The position numbers and the translations under genes are program-made. From an uncultured bacterium (GTDB taxonomy: Bacteria > Patescibacteriota > Microgenomatia > UBA1400 > PJMF01), in assembly GCA_903842795.1 (NCBI GenBank), contig CAIMNJ010000013.1:69302-133301 (forward strand): 64,000 nucleotides of DNA, written 5' to 3'. This document shows, piece after piece, positions 12,139-34,545 of the stretch (the first letter of the stretch is position 1; every line of letters starts with the position of its first letter). The notes under the pieces were generated by a model, which was given only the letters and a program-made list of their open reading frames with translations, did not search any database and had not been told where the DNA came from.

Positions 12139-12157
12139 ATGTTTTACGCTATGCGCA

Positions 12158-12267: not shown

Positions 12268-12294
12268 ATATAATACCCTAGTTGAGATAATTAA

Positions 12295-12372
12295 GCACCC
12301 ATAGCTCAGTCTGGATAGAGCGTTTGTTTGCGGAACAAAAGATCGTGCGTTCGAATCGCACTGGGTGCACCA
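12295..12372 (+). tRNA. tRNA-Arg (anticodon GCG by manual fold), CCA encoded
   Basis: Manual cloverleaf: 7-bp acceptor GCACCCA/TGGGTGC, D-arm GCTC..GAGC, anticodon stem TTTGT/ACAAA with loop TTGCGGA, T-arm GTGCG-TTCGAAT-CGCAC, A73, CCA. Confidence 0.75.
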
Positions 12373-12454
12373 AATCACAATAACAGTACCAAACACCCCA
12401 CTCGGGTGTTTTTTTGTTTTTAGTGTTAGAATTTAGAAGTTCCTACAGATCTAA

Positions 12455-12536
12455 GGAAGGGTCGCATAGCGGCTATTGCATCAGCCTCGAAAACTGACGC
12501 CTTCGGGCACCGCGGGTTCGAGTCCCGCCCCTTCCG
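12455..12536 (+). tRNA. tRNA-Ser (anticodon CGA), type II with long variable arm, no encoded CCA
   Basis: Acceptor GGAAGGG/CCCTTCC, 3-bp D-stem, anticodon loop CTCGAAA (C31.A39 mismatch), variable arm GCC-TTCG-GGC, T-arm GCGGG-TTCGAGT-CCCGC, G73 discriminator. Confidence 0.7.
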
Positions 12537-12775
12537 CAAGTAACACAAATTATCTTGATAGACCCATCCTTTTACCGTATTAGCTTGATGCAGTCGACTT
12601 AATTTTTACCGAAAAAGGTTGATTCTCGTTTTACAGCCTGTATAAAACGAAACCTTGAGTTATTAGATACTAAAACTCATATTGAAAACCTCTTCTCATC
12701 TTTAATATAGTTGCGAAATGACGAACAAAAGAAATTTAAAGATTATCCAAATTGGCTTCTTTAATAAAATAAATT

Positions 12776-14071
12776 TTAGTGAAGGCTCAAAACCTTATTC
12801 TTCAAAACAAACCTTGTTTTCAGACAGGATAATATTTGTTGGCGGTCACTTGCTGATCCAGTTTTTAGAATATGTTCTAAATATGTTTTGGCCATTTCTG
12901 TATTGTTTAGTTTCACAGCAGATAGTTCAAGCTCTTCTAAATTTCCAGATAAATATTCTTGATTGAGTACCTCTGATCTTAATCTATGAAATTTCTCAAT
13001 GTCACTTCTAATTTGTTTCGAAATCTTTGCCTCATCAATTTTAATTTTAGGTAATAGTGTTAGCAGCTGATCGATTAAATCTTGCTCAGTAATATATGGC
13101 TCATTGCAATCGTAATCTACAGTTTTAGTACAGTGATAATAAATATAGGTAGCCTCTCCGCCATATTTTAATTTCTTATGTTTTTCCTCTGGAATAACTT
13201 GTGCTCCACATCTGCCACATGTACAAATTCCTCTAAAACCATAACCATTTTTCTTCCAAGTTTTTGGAGTGGTAATAAGTTGCTTTTGCACTTTCATAAA
13301 TAAATCGTGAGAAATTAGTGGTGGGTGAGTACCTTTATATAGCACTTCACCAAATTCAAACTCACCGTAGTAAAAACTATTCTTAAGAGTGGAGAAGACT
13401 TTGCTCAATGCTAATTGTTTCCCAGACCTCGTGGTAAATCCTATTCTGTCCAACCATCGTTTAATCATTCTTCCTGAATAATGCTCTTCGCCAACTTTCT
13501 CAAACATTTGGGTAACAAATGGTGCTCTCTCCTCATCAACAATTATTTCTCTAATGCGATCATTTTTAATAATATTTAGATATCCTATTGGAGCATAACC
13601 AGGTCTAATGCCCATTTCACACTTGGCTCTAAGGCCTCGTTTAACATTAACTCCACGATTATCATTTTCTAGTTTTGCTTGTGAGCAGAGAATCATGAGC
13701 AAAAACTTTTCATTTGGGCTATTGGTAAAACTTTGAGAATAGGTTTGGATCTTTAGCAACTTGCCTTGATCCATCAGATCAACTAGTGAGCCCAAATCGC
13801 CAGCATTTCTGCTTAGTCTATCAGGAGCCCAAGTTAAAATAGCATTATATTTTTCTTCTCTAATTTCTTTAAGTATTTCAACAAATAGTGGTCTAGCTCC
13901 AGAGGCTTTGGCCGAGTGACTTTCACGCTTAATTTCGACTATTTTGAGGCCCTCACGCTCGGCCAATGTGGTCATTTCTTTAATCTGGGAGTCGATAGAC
14001 ATTGTTTGTCGTTCATCAGACTCTGATGACTTTCTAGAGTAGAGGCAGTATTTGATTTCTGAGCTTTTCAT
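12776..14071 (-). CDS. large serine recombinase (resolvase domain + recombinase/zinc-ribbon domains)
   Basis: N-terminal YSRKSSESD...SIDSQ catalytic serine block, then recombinase domain with Cys cluster (CTCGRCG...CTK). Confidence 0.85.
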   Translation of the reverse strand: MKSSEIKYCLYSRKSSESDERQTMSIDSQIKEMTTLAEREGLKIVEIKRESHSAKASGARPLFVEILKEIREEKYNAILTWAPDRLSRNAGDLGSLVDLMDQGKLLKIQTYSQSFTNSPNEKFLLMILCSQAKLENDNRGVNVKRGLRAKCEMGIRPGYAPIGYLNIIKNDRIREIIVDEERAPFVTQMFEKVGEEHYSGRMIKRWLDRIGFTTRSGKQLALSKVFSTLKNSFYYGEFEFGEVLYKGTHPPLISHDLFMKVQKQLITTPKTWKKNGYGFRGICTCGRCGAQVIPEEKHKKLKYGGEATYIYYHCTKTVDYDCNEPYITEQDLIDQLLTLLPKIKIDEAKISKQIRSDIEKFHRLRSEVLNQEYLSGNLEELELSAVKLNNTEMAKTYLEHILKTGSASDRQQILSCLKTRFVLKNKVLSLH

Positions 14072-14156
14072 AGCAGTTTTCCTTCAATTAGTGAAGGTAC
14101 CGCAAAGAAATTAGAAGTCTAGTACAAAAACAAAAAACTAGTGATATTATTCATTT

Positions 14157-15125
14157 GTGAAAGAAAATGCTGAAACAGCAAAGAAATATCTAGAATTAAT
14201 TGCAGGTGGGTCTTTTTTATTTGTGTTGATGGGTTATTTTTTTGGATACTCAATTTTTTTCTCTTTTTTGCATTCCATGCTTGGGCTGCCGGTGTTAACA
14301 AGTATGATTTTTCCACCAAGTCAAATATTGTTTCTCGGTTATTTAATTATATTCAGTTTATTAATTTCAATTTTTGTTACTTCTCAGATTTATGGTAGAT
14401 CTGACGGAGTTTCTTTCTCAGAGCTAATATTTGCAGGAGTATTTTTAGGAATGTGGAGTTCTAACATCAAATTCCACGTGTTTCATTTTGAATTTTCTTC
14501 ATTATTAACTAAATTATTTGGCACATTAATTTTAATTATTATTGTTTTTGTATATTTTTATCTGTTACGTTTCAGAAATAAACGTAAAAATAAAAAATTA
14601 AAGCTAAAAAAGCATGAAGAATTTTTTTCAACTGCTTGGCTAGTGTATCTTTTCGCTATATTATTACCAATATTTTCCTCTAGAGGAGAACATATTATTG
14701 GTGCAAAAACTGATATTGTTACTATATTTTCAACTTTTTATTTTGAAATTTATTATGTTGTTTCTCTATTGGTTATTTTATTTAATTGGTTTATTGAGGA
14801 GAAAAACAATAAAAAGAAGTCTAAATTTGTAACTGGACTCATTTTTTTGACTACAATTTTATTTTTAATATATCAATTTTCTTCAATTTTTGGCAAAGCC
14901 ATAGCTGAGAGTTATATAAAAAACCAAGAAGGAATGTTTTCATCAATTTCATTTGGACTAAATAAAGAAATAGATATAAACGGTTCTAACAAAACTTCTA
15001 AATTAAACAATCTTTTTTTGCTATCAAAAGATAATGATTCTTATTATGTTTTTCAAATGAATCCAAATAAATTAATATCTATCGAATCTAGCACAGTTGA
15101 CTTCGCAACGATGCCGGATAATTAA
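14157..15125 (+). CDS. polytopic membrane protein, hypothetical; very AT-rich gene
   Basis: Multiple hydrophobic segments; composition visibly far more AT-rich than its neighbours. Confidence 0.45.
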   Translation: MKENAETAKKYLELIAGGSFLFVLMGYFFGYSIFFSFLHSMLGLPVLTSMIFPPSQILFLGYLIIFSLLISIFVTSQIYGRSDGVSFSELIFAGVFLGMWSSNIKFHVFHFEFSSLLTKLFGTLILIIIVFVYFYLLRFRNKRKNKKLKLKKHEEFFSTAWLVYLFAILLPIFSSRGEHIIGAKTDIVTIFSTFYFEIYYVVSLLVILFNWFIEEKNNKKKSKFVTGLIFLTTILFLIYQFSSIFGKAIAESYIKNQEGMFSSISFGLNKEIDINGSNKTSKLNNLFLLSKDNDSYYVFQMNPNKLISIESSTVDFATMPDN

Positions 15126-15129
15126 GGTT

Positions 15130-16581
15130 TTATATCCACCCAATTTGTGGCTCATATTCGCTTAAATATTCTCTGTGTTTTGAACAAGCCAAAGTAAAAG
15201 CGTCAGCTAAATCATCAAACCTCTCGCTACCAAAGAAAAGAAGCTGATTAATGAGTTCTTCAGCTCCTTTTCTTGGAAATAAGATTTGACCTTTGCTAAC
15301 TTGCGTTGATGCCGACCAAAGCCTTGTGCTTTTATCTTGTCCTTTAATAGGAACACCTTCTACTGGTAGGTCATGGCTTTTTAATTGGTCTACTAAGGCT
15401 ACTTGCTGACCAGCTTGTTCAACAATAATTTTGACCGTATGAGATCTGCCAATCGTCTTGTAAATGCTAGCTATTAAATCAATCAACTCTGGACTATTCC
15501 ATTTACCGCTATAAATAGTTTCGTGGATATACATCTTTTTATCATCGTGACCAAAGTCATAAAATGATGAGCAAATGATCGCAGTCTTATCAGCTTCTTT
15601 AGTAGTAGAAAAGGCTGGATCGATGCTAATAACGTAATAAGACAAATACTTATCATCGGGAAATTGGTCGTAATACTGAATCCACTCTGGCTTAATAATT
15701 TGCTCATTACTATTAATTGCCTTCAGTAAATATTCTCTAGCAAAATCAATTTCAGTAAGACTGTTTTTAAGCCTATCGACTTCTTTTTGGTTTGGATATT
15801 TTCCTTGCCATAAGCAGCTGCCATCTTCATTAAGAAGCGGGTATTCGCGATAGTATCCAATCCTTTTGCCACTTTGAATCGATTCTCTAAGACGCATCAT
15901 CGCAGAATCTTTATGAACTAGATTGCCGATAAAAACATATGAAGTTTCTGGATTGCCAATTGGAATTAGCTCACCATTAACAAACTCCCAAAGTTTATCT
16001 CTTTGTTCTAAGGTCTTCGCTGACTGCACGTCCTCAATATCGTCAGCAATGATTAAATCTGGTCTATAAGCACCATGTCTAATTCCACGAATTGATTCAC
16101 TCACTGAGACCGCAGAAATTCTTGCCTTATGTTCTTGCAATACTAAGCTAGCAGAATTCCATTCTGAAGTTTCAGCTGTCAGAAATGGCCCAAAATCATT
16201 AATTAGTAGTTCATTAGTTTCTAATTCTTGTCTGATGTTATAAAGAGTTTGACTTGATCTACTTTGGCTTTGGCAAACAATAACCACGAATTTTTTCTGA
16301 TTGGTACAAATAGTGTTCCAAAGAGGCAAAATTAAGGAGCAGAGTGTTGACTTTGCACTACCTCTAAAAGCCACTATGCAGCTTAAACCAGGTTCTTTAT
16401 TAGTTATTAGGTCAATAATCTCACGATGAAATGCTGGCTGTTTATATTGCAGAAAATGAGGAAAGTACAAAGTCAGAAACCACTGGAAACTTTGTTTAGC
16501 CAGCATTCTACGACCAACTCTTGTTTGAATTAAATCATCGATAGCTTCAAATTTATTTTGCATACTAGTCACCTCCCTCAT
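15130..16581 (-). CDS. phage terminase large subunit (ATPase + nuclease)
   Basis: Walker-A-like AFRGSAKST, Walker B/acidic LIIADDIED, C-terminal RNaseH-like nuclease region; adjacent small subunit gene. Confidence 0.7.
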   Translation of the reverse strand: MREVTSMQNKFEAIDDLIQTRVGRRMLAKQSFQWFLTLYFPHFLQYKQPAFHREIIDLITNKEPGLSCIVAFRGSAKSTLCSLILPLWNTICTNQKKFVVIVCQSQSRSSQTLYNIRQELETNELLINDFGPFLTAETSEWNSASLVLQEHKARISAVSVSESIRGIRHGAYRPDLIIADDIEDVQSAKTLEQRDKLWEFVNGELIPIGNPETSYVFIGNLVHKDSAMMRLRESIQSGKRIGYYREYPLLNEDGSCLWQGKYPNQKEVDRLKNSLTEIDFAREYLLKAINSNEQIIKPEWIQYYDQFPDDKYLSYYVISIDPAFSTTKEADKTAIICSSFYDFGHDDKKMYIHETIYSGKWNSPELIDLIASIYKTIGRSHTVKIIVEQAGQQVALVDQLKSHDLPVEGVPIKGQDKSTRLWSASTQVSKGQILFPRKGAEELINQLLFFGSERFDDLADAFTLACSKHREYLSEYEPQIGWI

Positions 16582-16984
16582 TAGAAGACATCAGCTCCAA
16601 AGCAGTTAAAACTTTTTCTTGCTGTTCAGGAGTTAAAGATTCCTGTGGAGCTATCGGAGTGAGCTCCACTCTTGTTCGATAATCTGGATGGTTATGTTTT
16701 AGCCAATAAGCAATGGCTTGGAAACTTTTATCTTTAATGCTGCTAATTAGCTGAGACTCAGCCATGTCGTTAACCATGGCTTTGCCTTCAGATAAAGAGC
16801 CTCGAGCTTTTTCAGCGAATTCAGCATCGTCTTTGCACCAGCGATAAAAAGTTGCTCTACCAACGCCAGCCCTTTCACAGGCAATCTGAACGATTGGCAT
16901 TTTCCTAAGTTGCTCAATTAGTTCTAATTTGTCATTAGCGATGCGATCGACAATTGTTATCTTTTGTTTAGTTTGCTTTGGCAT
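16565..16984 (-). CDS. phage terminase small subunit (HTH)
   Basis: HTH ACERAGVGRATFYRWCKDD typical of TerS; overlaps the TerL start. Confidence 0.6.
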   Translation of the reverse strand: MPKQTKQKITIVDRIANDKLELIEQLRKMPIVQIACERAGVGRATFYRWCKDDAEFAEKARGSLSEGKAMVNDMAESQLISSIKDKSFQAIAYWLKHNHPDYRTRVELTPIAPQESLTPEQQEKVLTALELMSSNEGGD

Positions 16985-16985
16985 T

Positions 16986-18317
16986 TTAGGAAATCCTTTC
17001 TGCCTTAATACCAGTTAACTTTTCGTATCGTTTGCAAATCACTTCAGCATAAGTTGGACATTTTTCCATAATGTAGCAACGACGCTTCATTTTTGTGGCT
17101 GCGATTAGAGTCGAGCCACTTCCACCAAATGGTTCAAAAACTAAATCACCTCTTTTGGTGAGAACCTTAATGTATGGAATTAGAATCTCCGTAGGTTTGG
17201 TGCCAAAAACTACTCCCTGACCTGAGCTTTTCTCGTCGCTAGCGTTAAATTCAATAAAGTCAGTTGGCTGATATTTTTTACCTTTCTCGTAACCTTCCCA
17301 CTGAGGCTTTCCAGAAATGGCATAAAGAGCTGTCTGATATTCTTCTTGCAAACCATCCAGTTCTTCATCGTGGTTGTATTCAACGTCAGCTTCTTTGGAA
17401 GCACCGACCATTGCAATGTCATGCTTACTAAAGAATTTATACTTGGCACTAAATCCCTGATGACGATTAGGAATGTGCCAAACAATCATGTTTTTAACTT
17501 TCCAATATTTTTCCATCTCTACCCAGATAGTGCGCAGGTTTTTCCAGTTCTCGTAAACAATAATTGAGAAATGTTCAGCCTGCACCTTGGCAATATTAGC
17601 CATCCATAGTTCAGTAAAGTTGTCTGGAAGCACGTCAGTCATTAAATACTTGCGATCACGCTTATATCCGAAGCCTTCAGTGGCCTTACCGTGCTTAGTT
17701 TTGCCATGTAGATAATCCAAAATGTATGGTGGGTCAGTAAGAGTTAGATCCACTTTCTCATTGCCGATTAATTTCAGAACATCTGCCTCTATAGTAGAGT
17801 CGCCGATCATTAATTTGCTCTCACCTAGTTGATAGACTTCACCATTCTTCATTTTGATTTCATTAATGTTGAGTTTGGCTAATTCTTTCTTTAGATCAAA
17901 TTGCTCTGGGACAGCTAAATCTAAATTAAAAATGTTGTCTAGCTCTTCGCTACTAAAACCAACATCTTCCAATATTTCTGGAGCGAAGCCCTTTAGTAAT
18001 TCCCAATCCCATTCACCAGTTGCTCGATTAAGTCTTAGATTTAGATCTTTCTCTTTCTCCAAATCTGGGATGTCTAGGTAGACAACTGGCACTTCATTTA
18101 TGCCCAGCTCTTTGGCAGCCGCAATTCTCATGTGGCCACCAATAAGAGTGTTTAGTCTTTCAGAAGTAGAATTTGCGATAACTGGGTCAACGAAGCCATA
18201 AAGACTTAGGCTTTCCTTTAGTTTCTCCAAGGCTTCTTTATTCCACTTGCGCGGATTGTATGAGGCGAGATTTAGTTTCTCGATCTTAACTTGTACTATG
18301 TCTAGCTTATTTGGCAT
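16986..18317 (-). CDS. ParB-N nuclease-like domain fused to DNA N6-adenine/N4-cytosine methyltransferase (phage-type orphan MTase)
   Basis: N-terminal ParB box GGHMRIAAAKELGINEVPVV; MTase motif IV DPPY (TLTDPPYILDY) before motif I FEPFGGSGST (beta-class order). Confidence 0.8.
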   Translation of the reverse strand: MPNKLDIVQVKIEKLNLASYNPRKWNKEALEKLKESLSLYGFVDPVIANSTSERLNTLIGGHMRIAAAKELGINEVPVVYLDIPDLEKEKDLNLRLNRATGEWDWELLKGFAPEILEDVGFSSEELDNIFNLDLAVPEQFDLKKELAKLNINEIKMKNGEVYQLGESKLMIGDSTIEADVLKLIGNEKVDLTLTDPPYILDYLHGKTKHGKATEGFGYKRDRKYLMTDVLPDNFTELWMANIAKVQAEHFSIIVYENWKNLRTIWVEMEKYWKVKNMIVWHIPNRHQGFSAKYKFFSKHDIAMVGASKEADVEYNHDEELDGLQEEYQTALYAISGKPQWEGYEKGKKYQPTDFIEFNASDEKSSGQGVVFGTKPTEILIPYIKVLTKRGDLVFEPFGGSGSTLIAATKMKRRCYIMEKCPTYAEVICKRYEKLTGIKAERIS

Positions 18318-18484
18318 AAGCGTTCCTTTCTTTGCCAGTTTCTAATATTTTTTGGATCAAACTGTCATATACTTTAATTATATTGAAAACGAGTGATTCT
18401 TTTACTAATTTTAGGAAATTGCTTTTTTTGAAACAAAAAAAGCCCAGTTTAATAAATGAGGTTTTTGATCGGTAGAGTACAATA

Positions 18485-20824
18485 GTGAATATGGATAAAG
18501 AAGCAAGTGCGAGACTCATTATTAACAAACTGCTTGAACAAGCTGGTTGGGTTCTGGTTAATAGTGATCAAATAAAAGCGAACGTTGATGTTGAAAATCA
18601 CCTAGTAGATGATGAGGAAAAGGAAAACAGTGGTTTTGCTGACTATGTCCTTTACGGACAAGATAGAAAACCAGTTGCTGTTATTGAAGCCAAGAGAAGT
18701 CAAATCGATCCCTTAGACGCTAAAGAGCAGGCGCGCATTTATGCTCAACAGCTAGGTGTTAGATGGGTGCTACTTTCTAATGGTGAAAAACACTACCAGT
18801 GGAATATTGAAGAAGGTAATCCAGAAGAAATCACTCGTTTTCCATCACAGGAGTCACTTGAATCAAACGTAAGCATTAAAAGAGATGCTGATTCACTAAT
18901 TAGTGAAGTTGTTGGCGATGATTATGTAGCTCTCACTCAAAACCCAATTTATCGACAAGATCCACGCTGGCAAACTGCAGATGGTAGAAAGCAAATGATT
19001 CAAACAGATAAATTGCGTTTTTTACGTGATTATCAATTGGATGCTATCAAATCAATTCAAAAAGCAGTTTCTACTGGCAAGAAAAGTTTTCTTTTTGAAA
19101 TGGCTACTGGGACAGGTAAGACCTTAACTGCTGCTGCTATTATTAAACTATTTATCAAAACTCAGAATGCTTCAAGAGTTTTATTTTTAGTTGATCGTTT
19201 GGAATTAGAAAATCAAGCCTTTAAAAATTTCCGTGATTATCTAAAACCAGATATCACGACTGTAATTTACAAAGAACATAAAGACGATTGGCACAGAGCT
19301 GAAGTAGTGGTGACTACTGTGCAAAGCATTATGAATGATGCTAAATTCCAAGATATTTTTAATCCTAATGATTTTGATTTAATTATCTCTGACGAAGCTC
19401 ATCGCGCTATTGGTGGTGATGGTGCTAGTCGTAGAGTTTTTGAATATTTCTCTGGATACAAACTAGGTTTAACAGCAACTCCAAAAGATTATCTTAAGAA
19501 TCTAGATACCAGCAAACTGGCAGAAACAGATCCTCGCCAGCTTGAAAAACGCACCCAACTCTCAACTTACGAAATCTTTGGTTGCGCTAGTGGCGAACCA
19601 ACTTTTCGCTACACTCTGCTAGATGGAGTTAAAGATGGATATCTTATCAATCCATATGTGCTCGACTGCCGTACTAAAGTAACCACCCAATTACTTTCCG
19701 ATGAAGGCTATTCTGTGGCTAATAACTCAGATGATAGTGGTGATGAAGAGGCCATCTACCATGCTGGTGATTTTGAGAAGAAGTTTTTTAGTGAAGATAC
19801 CAATCGCAAATTTGTCGAACTATTTTTTAGGAAAGCTCTGCGTGATCCAATTTCTAAAGAAATTGGCAAAACTATTGTTTTTTGTGTTAGCCAAAATCAT
19901 GCCAGAAAAATTACTCAACTGATGAATGAATATGCTTATGAATATTTTAATGGGTTATACAACTCAGATTTTGCCATTCAAATTACTTCCAATATACGCG
20001 ATGCTCAACCATTTACAATTAAATTTTCCAATAATAATCTAAGTGGAAACTCTCGTCATTTAGAAAATTACAAAACTAGCAAAACTAGAGTTTGTATCAC
20101 TGTCGGTATGATGACAACTGGTTATGATTGTCCAGATTTGCTAAATATTTGTTTGATGAGACCAATTTTTTCACCTCAAGATTTTGTGCAAATCAAAGGT
20201 CGCGGTACTCGTAAACACATCTTTAATTATTCTGAACGTCTAAATGGTCAAGAAGTTGAACAAAATGCAAATAAAGAGCGATTTAATCTTTTTGATTTCT
20301 TTGCAAACTGTGAATTTTTTGAAAATGATTACCCATACGATGAAACGCCACAGTTGCCAAAGATTAGAGAAAAAACTGTTGATGGTAAAAATGGTTTGAA
20401 CGGTAACATAATAGTTGATTATGGTTTTTCTCCAGAAGAATTTGCTCATAATCGTAAATCAGCAGATCAAATTGCAGATATTAAGGAAAAACAAATTGGC
20501 TATGAAGGCATGAATATTGATTCTAAGCTTTACAACATGTTGCGAGACAAAGCTAATTCGGCAGCTTTAAAAAAATCTGAAATAGAAAAACAAGCTCAAG
20601 ATTGGTGGAGTGAATTTTCTAGACAACTTACAGTAACTTATGATTTGATGGATGAAATTAAATCTCTTTTTGATTTAGTGGTTTTTGACGAACAAATTTT
20701 CCAAGATCTAAGCAATCACGAATTTAGTAAATATGCTAACATGCCGGAATTGTGGAATTTACTTAATTCATTAGGAAGAACCTGGATTGATCGAGTTGTA
20801 AATTTTATTAAACAGAAAAAATAA
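18485..20824 (+). CDS. hsdR: type I restriction enzyme R subunit-like protein (HSDR_N nuclease + SF2 helicase), compact 779 aa
   Basis: N-terminal HsdR_N PD-(D/E)xK region (ADYVLYG...IEAKR), helicase motif I FEMATGTGKT, motif II ISDEAHRA, motif VI QIKGRGTR. Confidence 0.75.
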   Translation: MNMDKEASARLIINKLLEQAGWVLVNSDQIKANVDVENHLVDDEEKENSGFADYVLYGQDRKPVAVIEAKRSQIDPLDAKEQARIYAQQLGVRWVLLSNGEKHYQWNIEEGNPEEITRFPSQESLESNVSIKRDADSLISEVVGDDYVALTQNPIYRQDPRWQTADGRKQMIQTDKLRFLRDYQLDAIKSIQKAVSTGKKSFLFEMATGTGKTLTAAAIIKLFIKTQNASRVLFLVDRLELENQAFKNFRDYLKPDITTVIYKEHKDDWHRAEVVVTTVQSIMNDAKFQDIFNPNDFDLIISDEAHRAIGGDGASRRVFEYFSGYKLGLTATPKDYLKNLDTSKLAETDPRQLEKRTQLSTYEIFGCASGEPTFRYTLLDGVKDGYLINPYVLDCRTKVTTQLLSDEGYSVANNSDDSGDEEAIYHAGDFEKKFFSEDTNRKFVELFFRKALRDPISKEIGKTIVFCVSQNHARKITQLMNEYAYEYFNGLYNSDFAIQITSNIRDAQPFTIKFSNNNLSGNSRHLENYKTSKTRVCITVGMMTTGYDCPDLLNICLMRPIFSPQDFVQIKGRGTRKHIFNYSERLNGQEVEQNANKERFNLFDFFANCEFFENDYPYDETPQLPKIREKTVDGKNGLNGNIIVDYGFSPEEFAHNRKSADQIADIKEKQIGYEGMNIDSKLYNMLRDKANSAALKKSEIEKQAQDWWSEFSRQLTVTYDLMDEIKSLFDLVVFDEQIFQDLSNHEFSKYANMPELWNLLNSLGRTWIDRVVNFIKQKK

Positions 20825-20837
20825 ATAATTCAAACCT

Positions 20838-23399
20838 ATGCTAACTACTGCTACTAAGAAAAAAATTGATAATGCCAGAGATATTTTGGTTGGAAAAATT
20901 CCTATGCCTACTGCTCAAGTAGAGCAGATTACTTTAGCTTTGATCTATAAATTCATGTCTGACATGGACAAAAAGGCCAAAGATTTGGGAGACGCTGATG
21001 GCTTTTTTGCCAATGGTTATGAGAAATATGCTTGGGAAAAATTGATGGATAAAGCCCTACCCGCTCGTGATCGAGTTTTGCTTTACCGTGAAGCTCTGGA
21101 AAAAATGGCTCTTAACCCTTACATTCCTCAACTATTTTGCGATGTTTTTCGCAATGCTTCATTGCCTTTTAATGATCCTGAAACCCTCAAGCTGTTTCTA
21201 GATGTCATTGATCAATTTGAATATGACCATAGCGAAGAGCTTGGCAACGCTTTTGAATATTTATTACAGGTGATGGGTAGCCAGGGTGATGCAGGCCAAT
21301 TCCGAACACCACGTCATATCATTGATTTTATTGTTCAAGTCGTTGAGCCACAAAAAACTGATAAAATTCTTGATCCTGCTTGTGGAACTGCTGGTTTCTT
21401 AATTTCGGCTTACAAATATCTAAAAGAAAAAGGTTTATCTAGTGATGAAATGAACCAAATTTCTGAAAACTTTGTTGGCTATGATATTTCTCAGGACATG
21501 CAACGCTTATCATTGGTAAACATGTATTTACATCATTTACCCAACCCCCATATCTATGAATATGACTCGTTAACTAGCGAAGATAGGTGGAATGAAAATT
21601 TTGATGTTATTTTAGCTAATCCACCATTTATGTCACCAAAAGGCGGCATCAAACCACATAATCATTTTTCTGTGCCATCAAAACGTGCTGAAGTGCTTTT
21701 TGTCGATTATATTATGGAGCACTTAAATGGTAAAGGAAAAGCAGGAGTGATTGTGCCGGAAGGCATTATTTTTCAAAGCCAAAATACATACAAAGCTTTG
21801 CGCAAAATGATGATTGAAGAAAATTTTTTGTGGGCTGTGGTATCTTTACCGGCTGGAGTTTTTCAACCATATTCTGGTGTAAAGACAAGCATTCTTTTGT
21901 TTGACAGAGAAATTGCTAAGAAAACTGACAAAATCTTATTTGTGAAAGTAAATAGCGATGGTTTTGATCTTGGTGCTCAGAGACGAGAATCAGATAAAAA
22001 TGATTTGCCAGTTGCTCGAAACTTACTTTTGAAGTTTAAACAAGCAATTCTAAGTGGAAAAGAGCTCAGCTTAGATGATGCTCTTGAGATGAGCGGTGGC
22101 CCCAGTGACAAAGACATGGTGCATAGCTATGGCTTTGATCTGAATGCCAATAGCAATATTAAGTTAGATCAAATTGTCAGTAAAGCCTACGATGAAGTGA
22201 CCAAAGACAGCATTAAAGAATCAAATTATGATTTGAGCGTGGATAAGTATAAGGTAAGTGCTGTTGGTAATAGCGAGAAATGGGCAACGGTCACATTAGG
22301 CGAAATCTGTACTTTATTGCAAAGAGGAAAATCACCAAAATATGGTGAAAGTAACTTTCAAATAATCAAGTCAGGTCAAGCGAGAGGGTATTTCACATTT
22401 GATTTCAGCACGAAATACTTTGTGGATGAAAATTTTAAGATTGACCATAGAAAACTTGAAAAAGGAGATCTTCTAGTAAATTCCACTGGCGTGGGTACAG
22501 CTGGAAGAGTTACTTTATTTGATTTAAACGGTGATTATCTTGCAGACGGACACATAACAATTGTCAGACTTAATAAAAAAATTGCTAATTCAAAATTTGT
22601 TCTTTATGTTTTGGCGAACTATTATGGTTTCAAAACAATAGAAAAGATGGCAACTGGCAGCGGTGGACAAATCGAACTCTCGTTAGACACAATTCGATCC
22701 TTAAAAATTCCATTACCTCCAATCTCGATTCAAGAAGAAATTATTGAAGAAATCGACCAATTCAAAAAAATCATCGATGGGGCAAAACAAATTTTAAATA
22801 GTTGGAAGCCAATAATAAAAGTTGATTCAAAGTGGGAGGAAGTAAGACTAGGGGATATATGTGATGTTAGAGATGGAACACATGAAAGTCCAAAGAAAAT
22901 TTTAATTGGGTATCCTCTAATTACTTCAAAGAATATTAAATCTGGAAAGATAGATTTTTCTAATGTTAGTTATATATCTAATGAAGATTTTAATAAAATA
23001 TCTAAGCGTTCTCATGTTGATATTGGTGACATCATCATGCCAATGATAGGAACAATTGGAGGAGCATGCTTAATTAGATCTAAGGAAAAGGAATTTGCAA
23101 TTAAAAATGTTGCTCTTTTTAAAAAATCAGAAAAAATTATTCCTGAATTTTTATTAAATACATTAAACTCTGATGTTTTTAGAAAAATGTTTGAAAATAA
23201 ATCATCCGGTTCTACTCAAAAATTTGTATCACTCTCAGTTTTAAGAGATCTTAAAATTAAAACTCCATCTTTAGAAGTACAAAAAGAAATTGTTGGTAAT
23301 ATTCAAATGGAACTATTAATTATAGAGGGTGTTAAAGAATTAATTAATAATTATCAACAAAGGAGCAAGAAGAAAATTGAAGAAGTTTGGAAAAAATAG
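20838..23399 (+). CDS. type I RM methyltransferase-specificity fusion (HsdM N6-adenine MTase + two HsdS target-recognition domains)
   Basis: MTase motif I LDPACGTAGFL and motif IV LANPPF; C-terminal half has two TRD repeats (LGEICTLLQRGKSPKY... / LGDICDVRDGTHESPK...) with conserved HsdS spacer helices. Confidence 0.8.
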   Translation: MLTTATKKKIDNARDILVGKIPMPTAQVEQITLALIYKFMSDMDKKAKDLGDADGFFANGYEKYAWEKLMDKALPARDRVLLYREALEKMALNPYIPQLFCDVFRNASLPFNDPETLKLFLDVIDQFEYDHSEELGNAFEYLLQVMGSQGDAGQFRTPRHIIDFIVQVVEPQKTDKILDPACGTAGFLISAYKYLKEKGLSSDEMNQISENFVGYDISQDMQRLSLVNMYLHHLPNPHIYEYDSLTSEDRWNENFDVILANPPFMSPKGGIKPHNHFSVPSKRAEVLFVDYIMEHLNGKGKAGVIVPEGIIFQSQNTYKALRKMMIEENFLWAVVSLPAGVFQPYSGVKTSILLFDREIAKKTDKILFVKVNSDGFDLGAQRRESDKNDLPVARNLLLKFKQAILSGKELSLDDALEMSGGPSDKDMVHSYGFDLNANSNIKLDQIVSKAYDEVTKDSIKESNYDLSVDKYKVSAVGNSEKWATVTLGEICTLLQRGKSPKYGESNFQIIKSGQARGYFTFDFSTKYFVDENFKIDHRKLEKGDLLVNSTGVGTAGRVTLFDLNGDYLADGHITIVRLNKKIANSKFVLYVLANYYGFKTIEKMATGSGGQIELSLDTIRSLKIPLPPISIQEEIIEEIDQFKKIIDGAKQILNSWKPIIKVDSKWEEVRLGDICDVRDGTHESPKKILIGYPLITSKNIKSGKIDFSNVSYISNEDFNKISKRSHVDIGDIIMPMIGTIGGACLIRSKEKEFAIKNVALFKKSEKIIPEFLLNTLNSDVFRKMFENKSSGSTQKFVSLSVLRDLKIKTPSLEVQKEIVGNIQMELLIIEGVKELINNYQQRSKKKIEEVWKK

Positions 23400-23415
23400 T
23401 AAATGAAATGTTTGA

Positions 23416-23682
23416 ATGAAAATAATGAAATTAGATAAAGATCTGAGGGAACTGATTAAAGGAGTAACTAGTCCATATGTTTCTCAGAGAGATCCATCAT
23501 TTGGTTCTGCACAGATCACTAACATCCAGTCTATTAGAAATTTAGAAAAGACTATTAAAAAATTAGACAAACAAAATTCAGTTTTGAGTGTAAGAATGTA
23601 TTTCCTAGCAGTAATAAGTGGATTATTGGTATTTATTCAATTAGTTGAATATGCGATAAAGATATTCAACTTTTTTAAATAA
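23416..23682 (+). CDS. small hypothetical protein with C-terminal TM helix
   Basis: ORF only; hydrophobic C-terminus. Confidence 0.3.
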   Translation: MKIMKLDKDLRELIKGVTSPYVSQRDPSFGSAQITNIQSIRNLEKTIKKLDKQNSVLSVRMYFLAVISGLLVFIQLVEYAIKIFNFFK

Positions 23683-25099
23683 TTTTTTTCCAAATCTCCA
23701 CCATTGCCAAGGTATCTCTTTCACAATATTTAAGCAGTGCTTCTTTAATATCACTTCTCACATTCTCTGACATGCTTTTTCCAGCATTGATCATGTCCCA
23801 CCAAGTAATCATTGCCAGATCACCCTTACCAATCGCCAAATCTTTATAACTTAAATTCGGCACCAAAACAGGCAAAACCTTTTTAATTGACCAACTACCA
23901 CTGAAAGCCGGATCAATGTAATAACCTTTTCTTACTATTTCTGCCAAATCATAAATGCGTTCATTTACATCTAATAAAAAGTCACTAAATTCAGGATACA
24001 TTTTTGCTAGTTCAGCATTCCTGCTAGTTTCAAAAGTTTTGTTCCACACAATTACACTGCCATGATCTCCAATGTCACTTCGTAATTTCTTAACTAGTTC
24101 TATAGCTGGATCTCCAGTTCTATCTGCCAAATACTCACTGTGAGTCATTTCACCTTTTTCATTTACCATATGGAGAGAATATTGAAAAACCATTTGTTGC
24201 TGAGGATGATAACCTGGATATAAAGGTAAAGCTAAATTGCAGGTCTCATAATCTAAGAAATATAAAGGATAAGTTAATTTTCCCAGTGATTCTTTAACTG
24301 CTTCCAAATCAATAATAGCTTTGTTTTCTTTAACAGCTCTGACATGATTTTCTTGCAAAGGACTCAGTTTAAAATCCTCCGGAATATCTGAAATTTTAAT
24401 AATGCCATCTTCTATTAAAGAATTAGCTTTCTTTTGACTTAAATTTGGCAAAGTGTAGATTGAATGCTCTGGTAAATTAGGATGACATAGATTTGGACAA
24501 GGACATTTGTCTGGAGTGTAACAATGGGCAACTTTACTTGGATCATCCTGACTAATATCTGCCAATGCTTTTTCTCTTAGTTCCCTTACTTCATCTGCTA
24601 TTGATCTACATCTGTCAGTAATGTCTTCTATGGCAAACATTTGATCAAAAACATAATGACCATCGTAAATATAGTTGGCATTTAAATGTAATAGATAGAC
24701 GTGTCCAACAGGCTTTTCTTTTTCAACAATCAACATTTGAAAAGTCGCATCGTAGATATGTTCTTTTTTAACTTCAGTTGAGCTTTTGATTTCATAGATA
24801 TCTGTTTTACCTGTAGCAGCAATTTCTATTGTTTCATCAGCTATAGCTTCAAAATTGCCATCAACAAAGACTGGTTGGTGGCTGCCAGTATCGCCAACTT
24901 TGGCAGTAGATATGAAAATTTCTGTGAAATATTGACTAGCTAATTTCTCTGCTTTTTGACCTTGCAACATAATAAATTGGTCAAAATCAGAAGGAGCTGT
25001 TCTCTCAAGTAAATTGTGCTTTTTAGCCCACAAATGTCTTGGTGCTTCTTGGTAGAGGAGAAAGTCTGATTTGGTAAGTTGCATAGCTAAATTGTACAA
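23675..25099 (-). CDS. DUF2779-like protein, probable PD-(D/E)xK (RecB/Cas4-like) nuclease family
   Basis: Recalled DUF2779 signature around FLDYETCNLALPLYPGYHPQQQMVFQYSLH; Cys cluster CYTPDKCPCPNLCHP; no database check possible. Confidence 0.5.
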   Translation of the reverse strand: MYNLAMQLTKSDFLLYQEAPRHLWAKKHNLLERTAPSDFDQFIMLQGQKAEKLASQYFTEIFISTAKVGDTGSHQPVFVDGNFEAIADETIEIAATGKTDIYEIKSSTEVKKEHIYDATFQMLIVEKEKPVGHVYLLHLNANYIYDGHYVFDQMFAIEDITDRCRSIADEVRELREKALADISQDDPSKVAHCYTPDKCPCPNLCHPNLPEHSIYTLPNLSQKKANSLIEDGIIKISDIPEDFKLSPLQENHVRAVKENKAIIDLEAVKESLGKLTYPLYFLDYETCNLALPLYPGYHPQQQMVFQYSLHMVNEKGEMTHSEYLADRTGDPAIELVKKLRSDIGDHGSVIVWNKTFETSRNAELAKMYPEFSDFLLDVNERIYDLAEIVRKGYYIDPAFSGSWSIKKVLPVLVPNLSYKDLAIGKGDLAMITWWDMINAGKSMSENVRSDIKEALLKYCERDTLAMVEIWKKII

Positions 25100-25148
25100 T
25101 CAAAATAGGTACAAAGATAGCAAAAACTATCTGCTATAGTAGAGATAT

Positions 25149-26096
25149 ATGTCATTCTTTAACCAAGATCTCGACTCACTCCTCAAAGAAGTAATTCTTT
25201 TGCTTCAAACTTCAGATTACGCCAGTTCTTCACTCATTCAAAGACGCTTTTCTATTGGTTATGCTCGTGCTGCCAGAATAATAGATCAACTGTATGAATT
25301 AGGTTTTGTTGGTGCTCCCGATGGATCTAAACCAAGAGAAATATTGATTAAAGATATACCAGAAAATTTTGATTTAGAAAAGTATCTCCAAGATATGGTG
25401 CTACTTAAAAGTACTCCCACAAGTGAATGGAAAAGAGTCAAAGAAGCTATGGATGGCCATATTCTTAAGCTAGGTAAGAACCAAAAGAAAAAATTAGTCA
25501 CTCTAGATTTAGAAAAGTATGGCAACTTAATTTTAGTTGGTTCTGAGCTTACTAATATTTCTAAACTAACAAACAAAATTCTCAGTCAATTAGTTGAAGA
25601 AAAATCTCCTGAAGAACTAAAGTTTATCGTGGCCGATCCTTCATCAAATCAACTTGAAATTAAAGATGGCGACCCACATCTATTAACACCAGTGATAGAT
25701 AATCCAGGAAAATTAGTGCCAGCTCTTGCTTGGTTGTCTATGGAAGTTGATAAGAGAAGAAAAGCAGAGAGCTCAGAATTTAATTTGCCAATTCTACTAT
25801 TTATTAATAATTTTAATGAATTTAATTATTACGCTGCTGCGGAGATTCAAGATCGTATGTCTAGAATTCTCAAATTAGGTAGAAATGTAAAAGTTTACTG
25901 TATTATCTCTTTTGACTATCTAGATCCAAACATTAAAAAAGATCTCTTTGTTAGTGTTGGTGCTAAAATTGTTTTTAAGCCTACCACCGAGCACATGGCT
26001 CGTAACAACGGCATTCCAGAATCAATTGAACTCACTAGTCCAGATGAAGCTATTCTAGAGACAATGTATGAGGGGAGAGAAACTTTTTCCATCTAA
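25149..26096 (+). CDS. FtsK-like protein: N-terminal FtsK-gamma (KOPS-binding winged helix) + degenerate RecA-like motor domain
   Basis: SSSLIQRRFSIGYARAARIIDQLYELGFVG matches the FtsK gamma domain; downstream LKFIVADP...PHLLTPVIDNPGKLVPALAWLSMEVDKRRK and later blocks align to the FtsK beta domain, but Walker A is LVGSELTNISK and Walker B is FINNF. Confidence 0.7.
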   Translation: MSFFNQDLDSLLKEVILLLQTSDYASSSLIQRRFSIGYARAARIIDQLYELGFVGAPDGSKPREILIKDIPENFDLEKYLQDMVLLKSTPTSEWKRVKEAMDGHILKLGKNQKKKLVTLDLEKYGNLILVGSELTNISKLTNKILSQLVEEKSPEELKFIVADPSSNQLEIKDGDPHLLTPVIDNPGKLVPALAWLSMEVDKRRKAESSEFNLPILLFINNFNEFNYYAAAEIQDRMSRILKLGRNVKVYCIISFDYLDPNIKKDLFVSVGAKIVFKPTTEHMARNNGIPESIELTSPDEAILETMYEGRETFSI

Positions 26097-26113
26097 TTTA
26101 AAAACTTAATTTT

Positions 26114-26710
26114 ATGTACAGCATTAATGAATATAATAATTTAGTTTCAAAATATGGCTCTTTTGCTAGTTGGGCAATTTGGAATTATGAGGATTCAAAA
26201 GACACCTCTATTATTGATAAAAATTTAGATCAACTGCATTCGAGATACGTTCTTCTTGGATTAAACATGTCTCGTTTATTAAATAGACCAGCTTGGTTTA
26301 ATTTTCATGACAACACTCATTCACGTAAAGTAAGATATGCCTGTAATGATAATGAATTGCGTGGCTCTTATATGACAGATCTTTTTAAAGACATGATCGA
26401 TCCAAGCTCTTCAAATTTTGAAAAGAATGTTACAAAAAAGGATATCGATGCGAATATAAAATTATTTAATCAAGAAATGGTAGACGTTAAAATAAATGAA
26501 GACACAAAATTTATTATTTTTGGTCAATCAACTTTTAGATTTTTTAATCAATATTTTAAACAAGATTATGGAAATGAAGTGATTTCTATTCCTCACTATT
26601 CTAGTAGAGGTACAGACAAAGAATGGGTAGAGGGTTTTTGGAAGAAGCTGAACATTAATTTAAATTTTGAATCTATTGTTAATAAATATATCAAAATAGA
26701 TCATTTATAA
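26114..26710 (+). CDS. hypothetical protein (198 aa)
   Basis: ORF with RBS context; no recognised motif. Confidence 0.4.
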   Translation: MYSINEYNNLVSKYGSFASWAIWNYEDSKDTSIIDKNLDQLHSRYVLLGLNMSRLLNRPAWFNFHDNTHSRKVRYACNDNELRGSYMTDLFKDMIDPSSSNFEKNVTKKDIDANIKLFNQEMVDVKINEDTKFIIFGQSTFRFFNQYFKQDYGNEVISIPHYSSRGTDKEWVEGFWKKLNINLNFESIVNKYIKIDHL

Positions 26711-26862
26711 AACAAGACACTCCTTTTACACTGTCTCATTTGTCTCATTTTTAGTACAATAATCTCTGGTGGAGCAGCAGTGCTATAACGACGTATGGTT
26801 CCAGACCCACATGCTCCGCAAACCAACAAATTTTTAGTTCACAGAGTTATACTACCTAGAAC

Positions 26863-33395: not shown

Positions 33396-33409
33396 ATTAT
33401 ATAAATCTT

Positions 33410-34531: not shown

Positions 34532-34545
34532 TTTAAAATTTAAAT

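What the first reader, a model, noticed from the sequence alone, without database searches (positions are those of the whole stretch)
12295..26710. tRNA-Arg/tRNA-Ser-adjacent mobile island carrying recombinase, terminase pair, orphan MTase, type I RM and nuclease/FtsK-like genes
Directly after two tRNA genes, the gene content switches from housekeeping to mobile and defence functions. In order it holds a large serine recombinase, an extremely AT-rich membrane protein, TerL and TerS, a ParB-MTase, an HsdR-like protein, a fused HsdM-HsdS, a DUF2779-like nuclease and a degenerate FtsK-like protein. This looks like an integrated phage-derived or satellite-like defence island. Where it ends is unclear: it could be near 26.7 kb or as far as the GIY-YIG gene at about 31.3 kb.
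Basis: partly seen in the sequence, partly recalled or inferred. Interest (0 to 1): 0.7.

Follow-up and report, generated by a model that had tools for sequence, protein, structure and literature searches.

The report
Capsid-less terminase island beside tRNA-Ser
Next to a tRNA-Ser gene of an uncultured Patescibacteria (CPR) bacterium lies a small integrated element that keeps only a phage DNA-packaging enzyme, a DNA methylase and an integrase plus defence genes; about 80 look-alikes exist in other CPR genomes, so it looks like an undescribed kind of phage-hitchhiking defence island.

Summary
The island is shorter than proposed, and it is not a one-off.

- **Near end.** A genus-level relative (L262) has an empty site directly after tRNA-Ser(CGA). 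Three occupied relatives share the motif GATAGACCC about 20 nt after the tRNA. This places the junction at 12,538-12,556.
- **Far end.** Host synteny (DUF2779, FtsK-like, DUF2177, HAD) resumes at 23,675. The DUF2779 and FtsK-like genes are therefore chromosomal backbone, not island.
- **Core element.** The core (12.56-18.35 kb) runs ParB-methylase > TerS > TerL > variable slot > large serine recombinase.
- **Family.** The same capsid-less module recurs in 81 metagenomic loci, and every named host is a Patescibacteria bacterium.
  - None of the 81 has portal or capsid genes.
  - Their TerL lies outside the clade of related real phages.
  - The core genes are under strong purifying selection (dN/dS 0.02-0.12).
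  - The slots hold restriction-modification (RM) systems, Shedu, reverse transcriptases and similar genes.
- **Type I RM (18.5-23.4 kb).** It sits where relatives carry a repressor followed by defence genes. Whether it moves with the element is unresolved.
- **Best reading.** This is a recombinase-integrated, satellite-like element that packages DNA with its own terminase into a helper phage's capsids. Packaging is inferred, not shown.

The parts
12455..12537 (+). tRNA-Ser(CGA), the integration landmark. tRNA-Arg(GCG) lies just upstream at 12295-12372.
   Evidence: ARAGORN and Rfam. The gene is invariant in relatives L258, L260 and L262.
12538..12556 (.). Junction zone at the near end, where the recombinase crossover is inferred to lie.
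   Evidence: In alignment A2, the window, L258 and L260 (all occupied) and L262 (empty) are alike through the tRNA. The occupied loci then share GATAGACCC(A/G)T, which L262 lacks.
12557..12565 (+). GATAGACCC motif, the first element-specific sequence and a candidate recombinase-binding arm.
   Evidence: Present about 20 nt after tRNA-Ser in all three occupied loci and absent from the empty site. Similar GGGTCT motifs lie next to the tRNA in L096 and L164.
12776..14071 (-). Large serine recombinase (integrase), 431 aa.
   Evidence: PF00239, PF07508 and PF13408; phrog_95 at 5e-56. N-terminal YSRKSS motif. 88% identical to the recombinase at the same tRNA-Ser site in L258. dN/dS 0.02 against L256.
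14157..15125 (+). Cargo in the TerL-recombinase slot: an AT-rich multi-pass membrane protein, 322 aa, function unknown.
   Evidence: GC 26.4% and about 7 hydrophobic segments. Only weak hits: KwaA at 8.6e-4 and a phage membrane 'moron' family at 2.8e-3. The slot holds unrelated genes in L256, L006 and L258.
15130..16581 (-). Terminase large subunit.
   Evidence: phrog_38 at 2e-77. Walker A (FRGSAKST), Walker B (DLIIADDIED) and the nuclease Asp residues are invariant in alignment A1. dN/dS 0.04.
16565..16984 (-). Terminase small subunit.
   Evidence: PHROG TerS families at 5e-8 to 2e-6. A homologous gene lies between the methylase and TerL in 138 of 166 loci by tblastn, and 99 proteins fall in protein cluster c2.
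16986..18317 (-). ParB_N + N6/N4 DNA methyltransferase fusion, the first gene of the packaging operon.
   Evidence: PF02195 and PF01555; phrog_498 at 1.7e-76. DPPY and FGGSG motifs are intact. 83-84% identical in L088, L089 and L258.
18485..23399 (+). Type I restriction-modification system: HsdR (18485-20824) and an HsdM-HsdS fusion (20838-23399). It is either cargo or an adjacent defence hotspot.
   Evidence: Pfam and PADLOC. It occupies the position where relatives carry a repressor followed by defence genes. L089 has a type II RM between the same two flanks, DUF2779 and the methylase.
23416..23682 (+). 88-aa protein with one C-terminal hydrophobic segment, the last gene of the variable segment.
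   Evidence: No family hit. GC 27.7%. No counterpart in L264.
23675..26096 (.). NOT part of the island: DUF2779 protein (23675-25099, -) and the short gamma-first FtsK-like protein (25149-26096, +). This is where host synteny resumes.
   Evidence: L264 has DUF2779 (41%), FtsK-like (68%), DUF2177 (83%) and HAD (62%) in the same order and orientation. It has no terminase or recombinase within 8.5 kb. The FtsK-like family is conserved across Patescibacteria.

Best explanation
**What it is**

The segment from about 12,557 to about 23,675 is an insertion between tRNA-Ser(CGA) and a conserved chromosomal block (DUF2779, FtsK-like, DUF2177).

Its core (12.56-18.35 kb) belongs to a widespread family of miniature, capsid-less, phage-derived integrative elements of Patescibacteria. 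The fixed parts of the family are:
- an operon of ParB-methyltransferase > TerS > TerL;
- a variable cargo slot;
- a large serine recombinase at the end next to the attachment site.

Most relatives also carry a repressor module upstream of the operon (XRE-type HTH, LexA/cI-like S24 repressor, or an ImmR/ImmA-like pair), followed by more cargo.

**Shown**
- The element sits immediately 3' of tRNA genes, with the recombinase gene facing the tRNA 3' end.
- An empty site exists in a related genome.
- The core genes are intact and under purifying selection.
- No member has structural or lysis genes, and no replication gene was recognised in any.
- The cargo is dominated by defence systems and turns over even between near-identical elements.

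**Inferred**
- The recombinase integrates and excises the element by a 2-bp crossover, without long repeats.
- On induction or helper-phage infection, TerS/TerL recognise the element's own DNA and pump it into procapsids made by a helper phage, so it behaves as a phage satellite.
- The methylase pre-methylates the DNA so that it survives restriction in the next host.
- Between transfers, the cargo pays for the element's keep. Here that is a membrane protein and probably the type I RM.

The copy in this window lacks the repressor module. The type I RM operon sits in its place.
For: **Gene identities:**

**Family**
- 81 loci have ParB-methylase/TerS/TerL followed on the same strand by the recombinase, and none of them has a portal or capsid cluster.
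- 20 related real phages have the portal and capsid clusters, and none of them has the recombinase downstream.
- TerL of the real phages forms its own clade; all 75 recombinase-linked TerL fall outside it.

**Selection**
- Against L256: TerL dN/dS 0.04, recombinase 0.02, TerS 0.12.
- For the methylase, pN is 0.07 against pS 0.81.
- Catalytic motifs are intact.

**Insertion**
- L262 has MgsA, tRNA-Arg and tRNA-Ser followed directly by housekeeping genes.
- L258 and L260 carry different variants at the same site: recombinase 88% and 71% identical, but TerL 67% and 34%.
- The GATAGACCC motif is found only in occupied sites.
- In 13 loci (12 relatives plus this window) a tRNA lies 95-460 nt after the recombinase stop, always in the same relative orientation.

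**Cargo turnover**
- L256 is 81% identical in DNA on both sides of the slot but unrelated inside it.
- L006 has an identical recombinase but a different slot gene.

**Cargo types:** type I, III and ISP RM, a PLD-helicase with a methylase, a reverse transcriptase, Shedu and Sie-like proteins.

**Regulators:** HTH_3, LexA/S24 and ImmA/ImmR-like.

**Hosts:** the source names are Patescibacteria, Pacebacteria and Parcubacteria.

**Far boundary:**
Against: - There is no direct evidence of excision, circular forms or packaging: no circular contigs and no empty-site reads for this strain.
- The far attachment site was not found. There is no inverted arm or repeat. It is therefore unproven whether the type I RM, and the cargo upstream of the methylase in relatives, lies inside the mobile unit.
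- No replication gene was recognised, and a headful or cos terminase normally needs concatemers.
- This window's copy has no recognisable repressor or excision factor.
- No helper phage is identified. The nearest uncultivated phages share only 32-38% TerL identity, and GenBank phages at most 29%.
- TerL and recombinase distances correlate only weakly (rho 0.27), so the modules recombine.
Confidence: 0.6

Rival explanations
1. It is a cryptic prophage remnant. A once-complete temperate phage lost its structural, lysis and replication genes. What remains is inert and is inherited vertically beside the tRNA.
For: There are no structural, lysis or replication genes. This copy lacks a repressor. 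No excision products were seen. The related real phages have the same methylase > TerS > TerL order, so descent from such phages is likely.
Against: The same four-gene architecture occurs in 81 loci, with a TerL clade separate from the phages. Repeated independent decay to the same end-point is implausible. The core genes show strong purifying selection and are full length. Related genomes show presence/absence at the site and different variants in it. Cargo has been swapped recently.
Confidence: 0.12
2. It is a host-beneficial module rather than a self-transmitting satellite. One possibility is that TerS/TerL act as an anti-phage decoy that seizes or blocks the procapsids of invading phages. 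Another is that they package DNA in situ, so that the neighbouring chromosomal defence genes are spread by lateral transduction. In both cases the recombinase serves only for acquisition.
For: The genes are under purifying selection although no capsid genes are present. Defence genes cluster on the methylase side even where element limits are unknown. Defence islands next to phage and PICI attachment sites are known to be mobilised by lateral transduction (PMC12829572). No replication module is present, which favours packaging in situ.
Against: No known defence model matched the core proteins that were tested. TerS and TerL were not scanned against PADLOC, and the methylase hit only RM-type models. 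Repressor modules of prophage type imply an inducible life cycle. Site-specific integration with variant turnover looks like an autonomous mobile element.
Confidence: 0.2
3. One reading: a single mobile island from the tRNAs through DUF2779 and FtsK-like to about 26.7 kb, or to the GIY-YIG gene at 31.3 kb.
For: DUF2779 genes do occur as cargo inside the TerL-recombinase slot of four relatives (L120, L157, L187, L224). L089 also has DUF2779 next to its RM and methylase. GC stays low up to about 27 kb.
Against: In a genus-level relative, DUF2779, FtsK-like, DUF2177 and HAD keep the window's order and orientation, with no terminase or recombinase within 8.5 kb. The gamma-first FtsK-like protein is a conserved Patescibacteria family with host-like graded identities. 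A more distant relative has DUF2177 and DUF1295 close to MgsA.
Confidence: 0.06

Closest known systems
PICIs / SaPIs (phage-inducible chromosomal islands)
   Same: Small integrated islands with an integrase at one end, a repressor-type regulator and their own TerS to redirect packaging. They have no capsid or tail genes, carry accessory or defence cargo and often sit near defence hotspots (PMC10085698; PMC12829572).
   Different: As defined in PMC10085698, PICIs have a primase-replicase module and usually capsid-size redirection genes, and they do not carry TerL. Their integrases are typically tyrosine recombinases (own knowledge). Here there is a full TerS + TerL pair, a ParB-methylase, a serine recombinase and no recognisable replication gene. 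The hosts are CPR bacteria.
Capsid-forming PICIs (cfPICI)
   Same: Satellites that carry both terminase subunits, acquired from phages (PMC10085698).
   Different: cfPICIs also encode capsid and head-tail adaptor and connector genes (11 core components in all) and steal only tails. None of these genes is present here or in any of the 81 relatives.
PLEs of Vibrio cholerae
   Same: Satellites integrated by a large serine recombinase that double as anti-phage islands (PMC6002521, listed).
   Different: PLEs have their own replication initiator and a Vibrio/ICP1-specific gene set, and they use the helper's large terminase (own knowledge). There is no homology beyond the recombinase class.
phiRv1 / phiRv2 of Mycobacterium tuberculosis (recalled from memory, not tested here)
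   Same: Prophage-like elements of about 10 kb with a large serine recombinase and a terminase gene, far too small to be complete phages.
   Different: As I recall, they retain capsid and prohead-protease genes and a primase-like gene, and they are usually regarded as cryptic prophages. They have no ParB-methylase and no defence-cargo slots.
Defence hotspots of P2 prophages and P4 satellites
   Same: Fixed positions in a mobile element where unrelated defence systems are exchanged between otherwise near-identical elements (own knowledge).
   Different: The element backbone, integrase type and host phylum all differ.

Membership tests
Large serine recombinase (phage-type integrase) | N-terminal resolvase catalytic domain with the serine nucleophile | tested here: met
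   PF00239 at 1.9e-19. N-terminal motif YSRKSSESDERQ.
Large serine recombinase (phage-type integrase) | C-terminal Recombinase domain plus zinc beta-ribbon | tested here: met
   PF07508 at 9.9e-13 and PF13408 at 6.4e-7. phrog_95 'integrase' at 5e-56.
Large serine recombinase (phage-type integrase) | Recombination between short attP and attB sites that share only a central dinucleotide | not testable with these tools
   Consistent with the absence of flanking repeats and with the junction mapped to 12538-12556. The far site was not found.
Complete or cryptic prophage | Portal, capsid, tail and lysis genes, or their decayed remains | tested here: not met
   No structural PHROG hits. No homologues of the related phages' structural proteins anywhere in the 64 kb. 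0 of 81 relatives have them.
Complete or cryptic prophage | For a cryptic remnant: relaxed selection or pseudogenisation of the leftover phage genes | tested here: not met
   dN/dS 0.02-0.12 and full-length ORFs.
PICI (definition of PMC10085698) | Integrase at one end | tested here: met
   Present, but it is a serine recombinase.
PICI (definition of PMC10085698) | Regulator (alpA, merR or stl type) | tested here: inconclusive
   None in this window. Relatives have HTH_3, LexA/S24, ImmR/ImmA-like and MerR/excisionase-like genes.
PICI (definition of PMC10085698) | Primase-replicase module | tested here: not met
   No such domain in the window or in the recurrent family clusters. Several small conserved genes remain unannotated.
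PICI (definition of PMC10085698) | TerS present while other phage packaging or structural genes, TerL included, are absent | tested here: not met
   TerS is present, but so is a full TerL.
cfPICI | TerL and TerS | tested here: met
cfPICI | Own capsid, protease, portal and head-tail adaptor/connector genes | tested here: not met
Type I restriction-modification system | HsdR with an N-terminal nuclease region and an SF2 helicase motor | tested here: met
   HSDR_N_2, ResIII and Helicase_C domains; PADLOC REase_I at 2.8e-60.
Type I restriction-modification system | HsdM methylase and an HsdS with two target-recognition domains | tested here: met
   N6_Mtase plus two Methylase_S stretches in one 853-aa protein; PADLOC MTase_I at 1.4e-95 and Specificity_I at 7.8e-49. 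The fusion is atypical.
tRNA-adjacent genomic island | Lies directly at the 3' side of a tRNA gene | tested here: met
   Element-specific sequence starts about 20 nt after tRNA-Ser.
tRNA-adjacent genomic island | Empty-site variant in a related genome | tested here: met
   L262, with MgsA 82% and BipA 91% identical and conserved left synteny, has no element.
tRNA-adjacent genomic island | Flanking direct repeat that includes the tRNA 3' end | tested here: not met
   None found. Only one relative, L166, has 185-bp flanking repeats. A repeat is not required for serine recombinases.

The most novel reading that the evidence does not exclude
These elements are a new class of phage satellite, and the first for CPR/Patescibacteria. 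It would be a 'terminase-only' hitchhiker. It brings a complete packaging motor (TerS + TerL) and a protective methylase, but no capsid, tail or replication genes. It integrates with a large serine recombinase beside tRNA genes. Its two or three cargo slots serve as a main vehicle for exchanging defence systems among these small-genome bacteria. By starting packaging in situ, it may also spread the adjacent chromosomal defence genes by lateral transduction.
Probability: 0.35. Interest if true: 0.8.

Novelty: new variant of a known kind. Interest (0 to 1): 0.66.

Why it matters
CPR/Patescibacteria are a large share of bacterial diversity. Their genomes are tiny, few of their phages are known, and little is known about how they exchange genes or defend themselves.

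A conserved, selected, capsid-less element would matter in three ways.
- It would be a concrete and testable route for horizontal transfer of immunity in this group. It carries its own terminase and integrase, and it swaps restriction-modification, Shedu, reverse-transcriptase and similar systems.
- It would add a new architecture to the catalogue of phage satellites: both terminase subunits without capsid genes.
- It would provide a set of tRNA-targeting large serine recombinases whose attachment site is partly mapped, which is of interest as genome-engineering tools.

There is also a practical point. Viral catalogues such as IMG/VR list many of these loci as viral contigs, although they contain no virion genes.

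Tried and rejected
- **Repeats in the window.** Direct and inverted repeats were searched in 12.2-34 kb. The tRNA-Ser 3' end and the junction were searched against the far side. I also looked for inverted copies of the 30-32 nt next to the tRNA, and for GGGTCTATC with up to 2 mismatches. Nothing exceeded chance, so the far attachment site stays unmapped.
- **Repeats in relatives.** Flanking repeats were searched in all relatives; only L166 has them.
- **Circular contigs.** Terminal repeats on contigs were checked as a sign of excised forms; none were found.
- **Distant synteny.** MgsA relatives from GTDB representative genomes (65% identity or less, L007-L086) were compared. They were uninformative, except that L009 has DUF2177 and DUF1295 near MgsA.
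- **Exact-protein look-ups for this strain.** All contigs show the same arrangement and no empty site. Contig breaks at 12194/12246, 14311, 26759 and 28788 were noted but are not reliable boundaries.
- **Single-protein scan of IMG/VR with TerL:** nothing. A scan with a TerL alignment was needed.
- **Left end of L089.** Its two leftmost ORFs show no similarity to FtsK-like or the 198-aa protein.
- **PDB sequence search.** Nothing for DUF2779 or the 198-aa protein.
- **Rfam on 11.9-12.9 kb.** Only the two tRNAs.
- **Promoter and terminator scan.** Counts were no higher than in shuffles.
- **Helper-embedded idea.** The possibility that the recombinase marks a satellite inserted into a prophage late operon was rejected, because host genes or a tRNA follow the recombinase, not a portal gene.
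- **Literature.** Seven searches found no description of this family. The library is incomplete, so this is not proof of novelty.


Full report
**1.

ARAGORN and Rfam place tRNA-Arg(GCG) at 12295-12372 and tRNA-Ser(CGA) at 12455-12537. The genes upstream are housekeeping genes: QueA, a RecD-like helicase, RluB, HAD, BipA and MgsA.

Downstream, Pfam, PHROGs and PADLOC confirm the following genes:
- a large serine recombinase, 12776-14071 (-);
- a 26%-GC multi-pass membrane protein, 14157-15125 (+);
- TerL, 15130-16581 (-), phrog_38 at 2e-77;
- TerS, 16565-16984 (-);
- a ParB_N + N6/N4 methyltransferase, 16986-18317 (-);
- HsdR, 18485-20824 (+);
- an HsdM-HsdS fusion, 20838-23399 (+);
- a DUF2779 protein, 23675-25099 (-);
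- a short FtsK-like protein, 25149-26096 (+), with its gamma domain at the N-terminus and no Walker A.

The host is an uncultured Patescibacteria (CPR) bacterium. The window matches metagenome contigs from the BUCK21 samples exactly. Named relatives of its MgsA are Pacebacteria, Woesebacteria or 'Patescibacteria group'.

**2. The core is not a random prophage stump**

Close TerL homologues (50-92% identity) lie in the same arrangement in other contigs. The arrangement is ParB-methylase > TerS > TerL > a variable gene > large serine recombinase, with no virion genes.

I scanned metagenome and IMG/VR contigs with a TerL alignment. This gave 160 more loci, for a working set of 166 related loci. 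I called ORFs in them and clustered the proteins. Two classes separate cleanly.
- **Real phages.** Loci whose TerL is only 32-38% identical to the window's have TerL followed by a portal (PF04860), a major capsid protein (PF05065) and a run of co-oriented structural genes.
- **Capsid-less elements.** Loci with 38-92% TerL identity have the capsid-less module.

In numbers, 81 loci have the recombinase downstream of TerL on the same strand and none of them has a structural cluster. Twenty loci have structural clusters and none of them has the recombinase downstream.

In a neighbour-joining tree the phage TerLs form their own clade, and all 75 recombinase-linked TerLs fall outside it. No GenBank phage has a TerL more than 29% identical. 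The source names attached to these TerLs are Patescibacteria, Pacebacteria and Parcubacteria.

**3. The core genes are maintained by selection**

I compared the window with L256, which is 81% identical in DNA.

| Gene | Result |
|---|---|
| TerL | dN/dS 0.04 |
| Recombinase | dN/dS 0.02 |
| TerS | dN/dS 0.12 |
| ParB-methylase | pN 0.07, pS 0.81 (synonymous sites saturated) |

The catalytic motifs are intact:
- TerL Walker A (FRGSAKST), Walker B (DLIIADDIED) and the nuclease aspartates;
- DPPY and FGGSG in the methylase;
- the N-terminal serine motif of the recombinase.

**4. Cargo turns over**

The distance from TerL to the recombinase is at most 350 nt in 40 loci, 0.35-3 kb in 24 and 3-8.3 kb in 17.

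The longer slots hold these systems:
- type I RM;
- type III RM;
- a PLD-SNF2 helicase with an Eco57I-like methylase;
- reverse transcriptases;
- DUF2779 proteins.

Upstream of the methylase, most relatives have a divergent regulator: HTH_3, a LexA_DNA_bind + Peptidase_S24 repressor, or a MerR/excisionase-like HTH. One relative has an ImmA/ImmR-like pair. Co-oriented defence genes follow the regulator: type I and type ISP RM, Shedu (SduA_C) and Sie-like proteins.

Turnover is recent. L256 matches the window at 81% on both sides of the slot but carries an unrelated 166-aa gene inside it. L006 has a 100% identical recombinase, yet it diverges from the window 8 codons into the slot gene.

**5. 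The near boundary**

Protein searches with MgsA found genus-level relatives (82-84% identity) whose left-hand synteny is fully conserved.
- **L262** has MgsA, tRNA-Arg and tRNA-Ser followed after 33 nt by housekeeping genes. This is an empty site.
- **L258** has the same site occupied by a variant whose recombinase is 88% and TerL 67% identical to the window's.
- **L260** has the same site occupied by a variant whose recombinase is 71% and TerL only 34% identical.

These variants show the modular mosaicism typical of mobile elements.

In the alignment the tRNA is invariant. All three occupied loci then share GATAGACCC(A/G)T about 20 nt after it (window 12557-12565), and the empty site lacks it. 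The crossover therefore lies within 12538-12556.

Across the family, 13 loci (12 relatives plus this window) have a tRNA (Gln, Ser or Glu) 95-460 nt after the recombinase stop. The tRNA 3' end always faces the recombinase.

No flanking repeat exists here, as expected for serine recombinases. One relative, L166, has 185-bp direct repeats. They enclose the whole module plus about 4 kb upstream of the methylase.

**6. The far boundary**

The gamma-first FtsK-like protein belongs to a conserved Patescibacteria family.

In GCA_002422165.1, the genome that also gave L260, a different contig (L264) carries four of the window's genes in the same order and orientation:
- DUF2779 (41% identical);
- FtsK-like (68%);
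- DUF2177 (83%);
- HAD (62%).

No terminase or recombinase lies within the 8.5 kb upstream of them. A different defence cluster abuts the DUF2779 3' end instead.

Host synteny in the window therefore resumes at the DUF2779 stop codon (23675). The variable segment is 12,557-23,675, not 12.3-26.7 or 12.3-31.3 kb.

Whether the type I RM and the 88-aa gene move with the recombinase is unresolved.
- **For.** The RM lies exactly where relatives have 'repressor + defence cargo'. It diverges from the methylase across a 168-bp spacer. In L089 a type II RM lies between the same two flanks.
- **Against.** L264 shows that the DUF2779 flank is a defence hotspot even without the module nearby. No far attachment site could be found.

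**7. Mechanism**

*Shown:*
- site-specific insertion beside tRNA genes;
- a conserved and selected packaging operon plus recombinase;
- prophage-type regulators in relatives;
- no virion or lysis genes, and no recognisable replication genes;
- exchangeable defence cargo.

*Inferred:*
- The recombinase integrates and excises the element.
- TerS/TerL package element DNA into the procapsids of a helper phage.
- The ParB-methylase protects the packaged DNA against restriction in the next host.
- The cargo benefits the host between transfers.

The lack of a replication module is the main weakness of a classical satellite model. It leaves room for in-situ packaging, that is, lateral transduction. 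That process is known to mobilise defence islands next to phage and PICI attachment sites (PMC12829572). A decoy role against invading phages is also possible.

**8. Comparison with known systems**

By the definitions in PMC10085698, this element is not a member of either PICI family.
- It is not a PICI. It has TerL, it has no primase-replicase, and its integrase is a serine recombinase.
- It is not a cfPICI. It has no capsid, portal or adaptor genes.

It shares only the integrase class with the PLEs of Vibrio cholerae. Seven full-text searches found no description of a terminase-plus-serine-recombinase capsid-less family, or of any satellite, in CPR bacteria. The library is incomplete, so novelty is provisional.

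**9. Verdict**

It is a tRNA-adjacent, phage-derived defence island, but it is about 3 kb shorter at the far end than proposed. DUF2779 and FtsK-like are chromosomal.
- Its core is one member of a large conserved family. That family is best described as a new variant of phage-satellite-like integrative elements.

Noticed in passing
window 12150-12270: Two tandem copies of a roughly 60-nt unit lie just upstream of tRNA-Arg, each with an internal hairpin (gcatctttcgtaccagctg...cagggtccgaa). Metagenome contigs of the same strain break at 12194 and 12246, so the unit may be repeated elsewhere in the genome. Rfam gives no match.
   Followed up: partly
window 25149-26096: A short FtsK-like protein has its gamma (KOPS-binding) domain at the N-terminus, only part of the motor domain and no GK[ST] Walker A. 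It belongs to a conserved family of 315-360 aa found across Patescibacteria (more than 70 clusters at 35-93% identity). In this window and in L264 it is divergently paired with a DUF2779 gene.
   Followed up: partly
window 20838-23399: The type I methylase and specificity subunits are fused into one 853-aa protein (N6_Mtase plus two Methylase_S domains). The HsdR is unusually short at 779 aa.
   Followed up: no
L006:1-147 versus window 14157-14181: A contig from a sister sample has a 100% identical recombinase. Its neighbouring slot gene shares only the first 8 codons (VKENAETA) with the window's membrane gene and then diverges. This looks like a cassette exchange with a breakpoint inside the gene start.
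   Followed up: partly
L127, L185, L186, L188, L190, L194, L228: Some family members carry two tandem TerL genes. Many others split the ParB-methylase into separate ParB-methylase and methylase genes.
   Followed up: no
L166:4046-4240 and 18525-18709: This is the only family member with long direct repeats (185 bp, about 86-94% identical). They bracket the whole element, including an ImmA/ImmR-like pair. The right copy abuts tRNA-Ser(GGA).
   Followed up: partly
IMG/VR contigs behind L207+L209, L176+L197 and L193+L217: Single contigs of 25-55 kb carry two separate terminase modules, which suggests tandem or clustered elements. IMG/VR lists these capsid-less loci as viral contigs.
   Followed up: no
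window 26114-27309: The 198-aa unknown protein (GC 27.6%) and the pyrimidine-dimer glycosylase lie between FtsK-like and DUF2177. The related genome L264 has UmuC/UmuD there instead, so this is a second small variable spot inside the host backbone.
   Followed up: partly
window 32197-37018: A low-GC (about 0.32) cluster encodes a HAD-like protein, a radical SAM enzyme, a SAM methyltransferase, a phosphatase-like protein and a TPP-dependent enzyme. It may be a small biosynthetic or modification cluster.
   Followed up: no
window 31086-31331; L102, L109, L119, L124, L145: Small GIY-YIG proteins of about 80-90 aa, like the one at 31.1 kb, recur close to these elements or to their target tRNAs in several relatives.
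   Followed up: no
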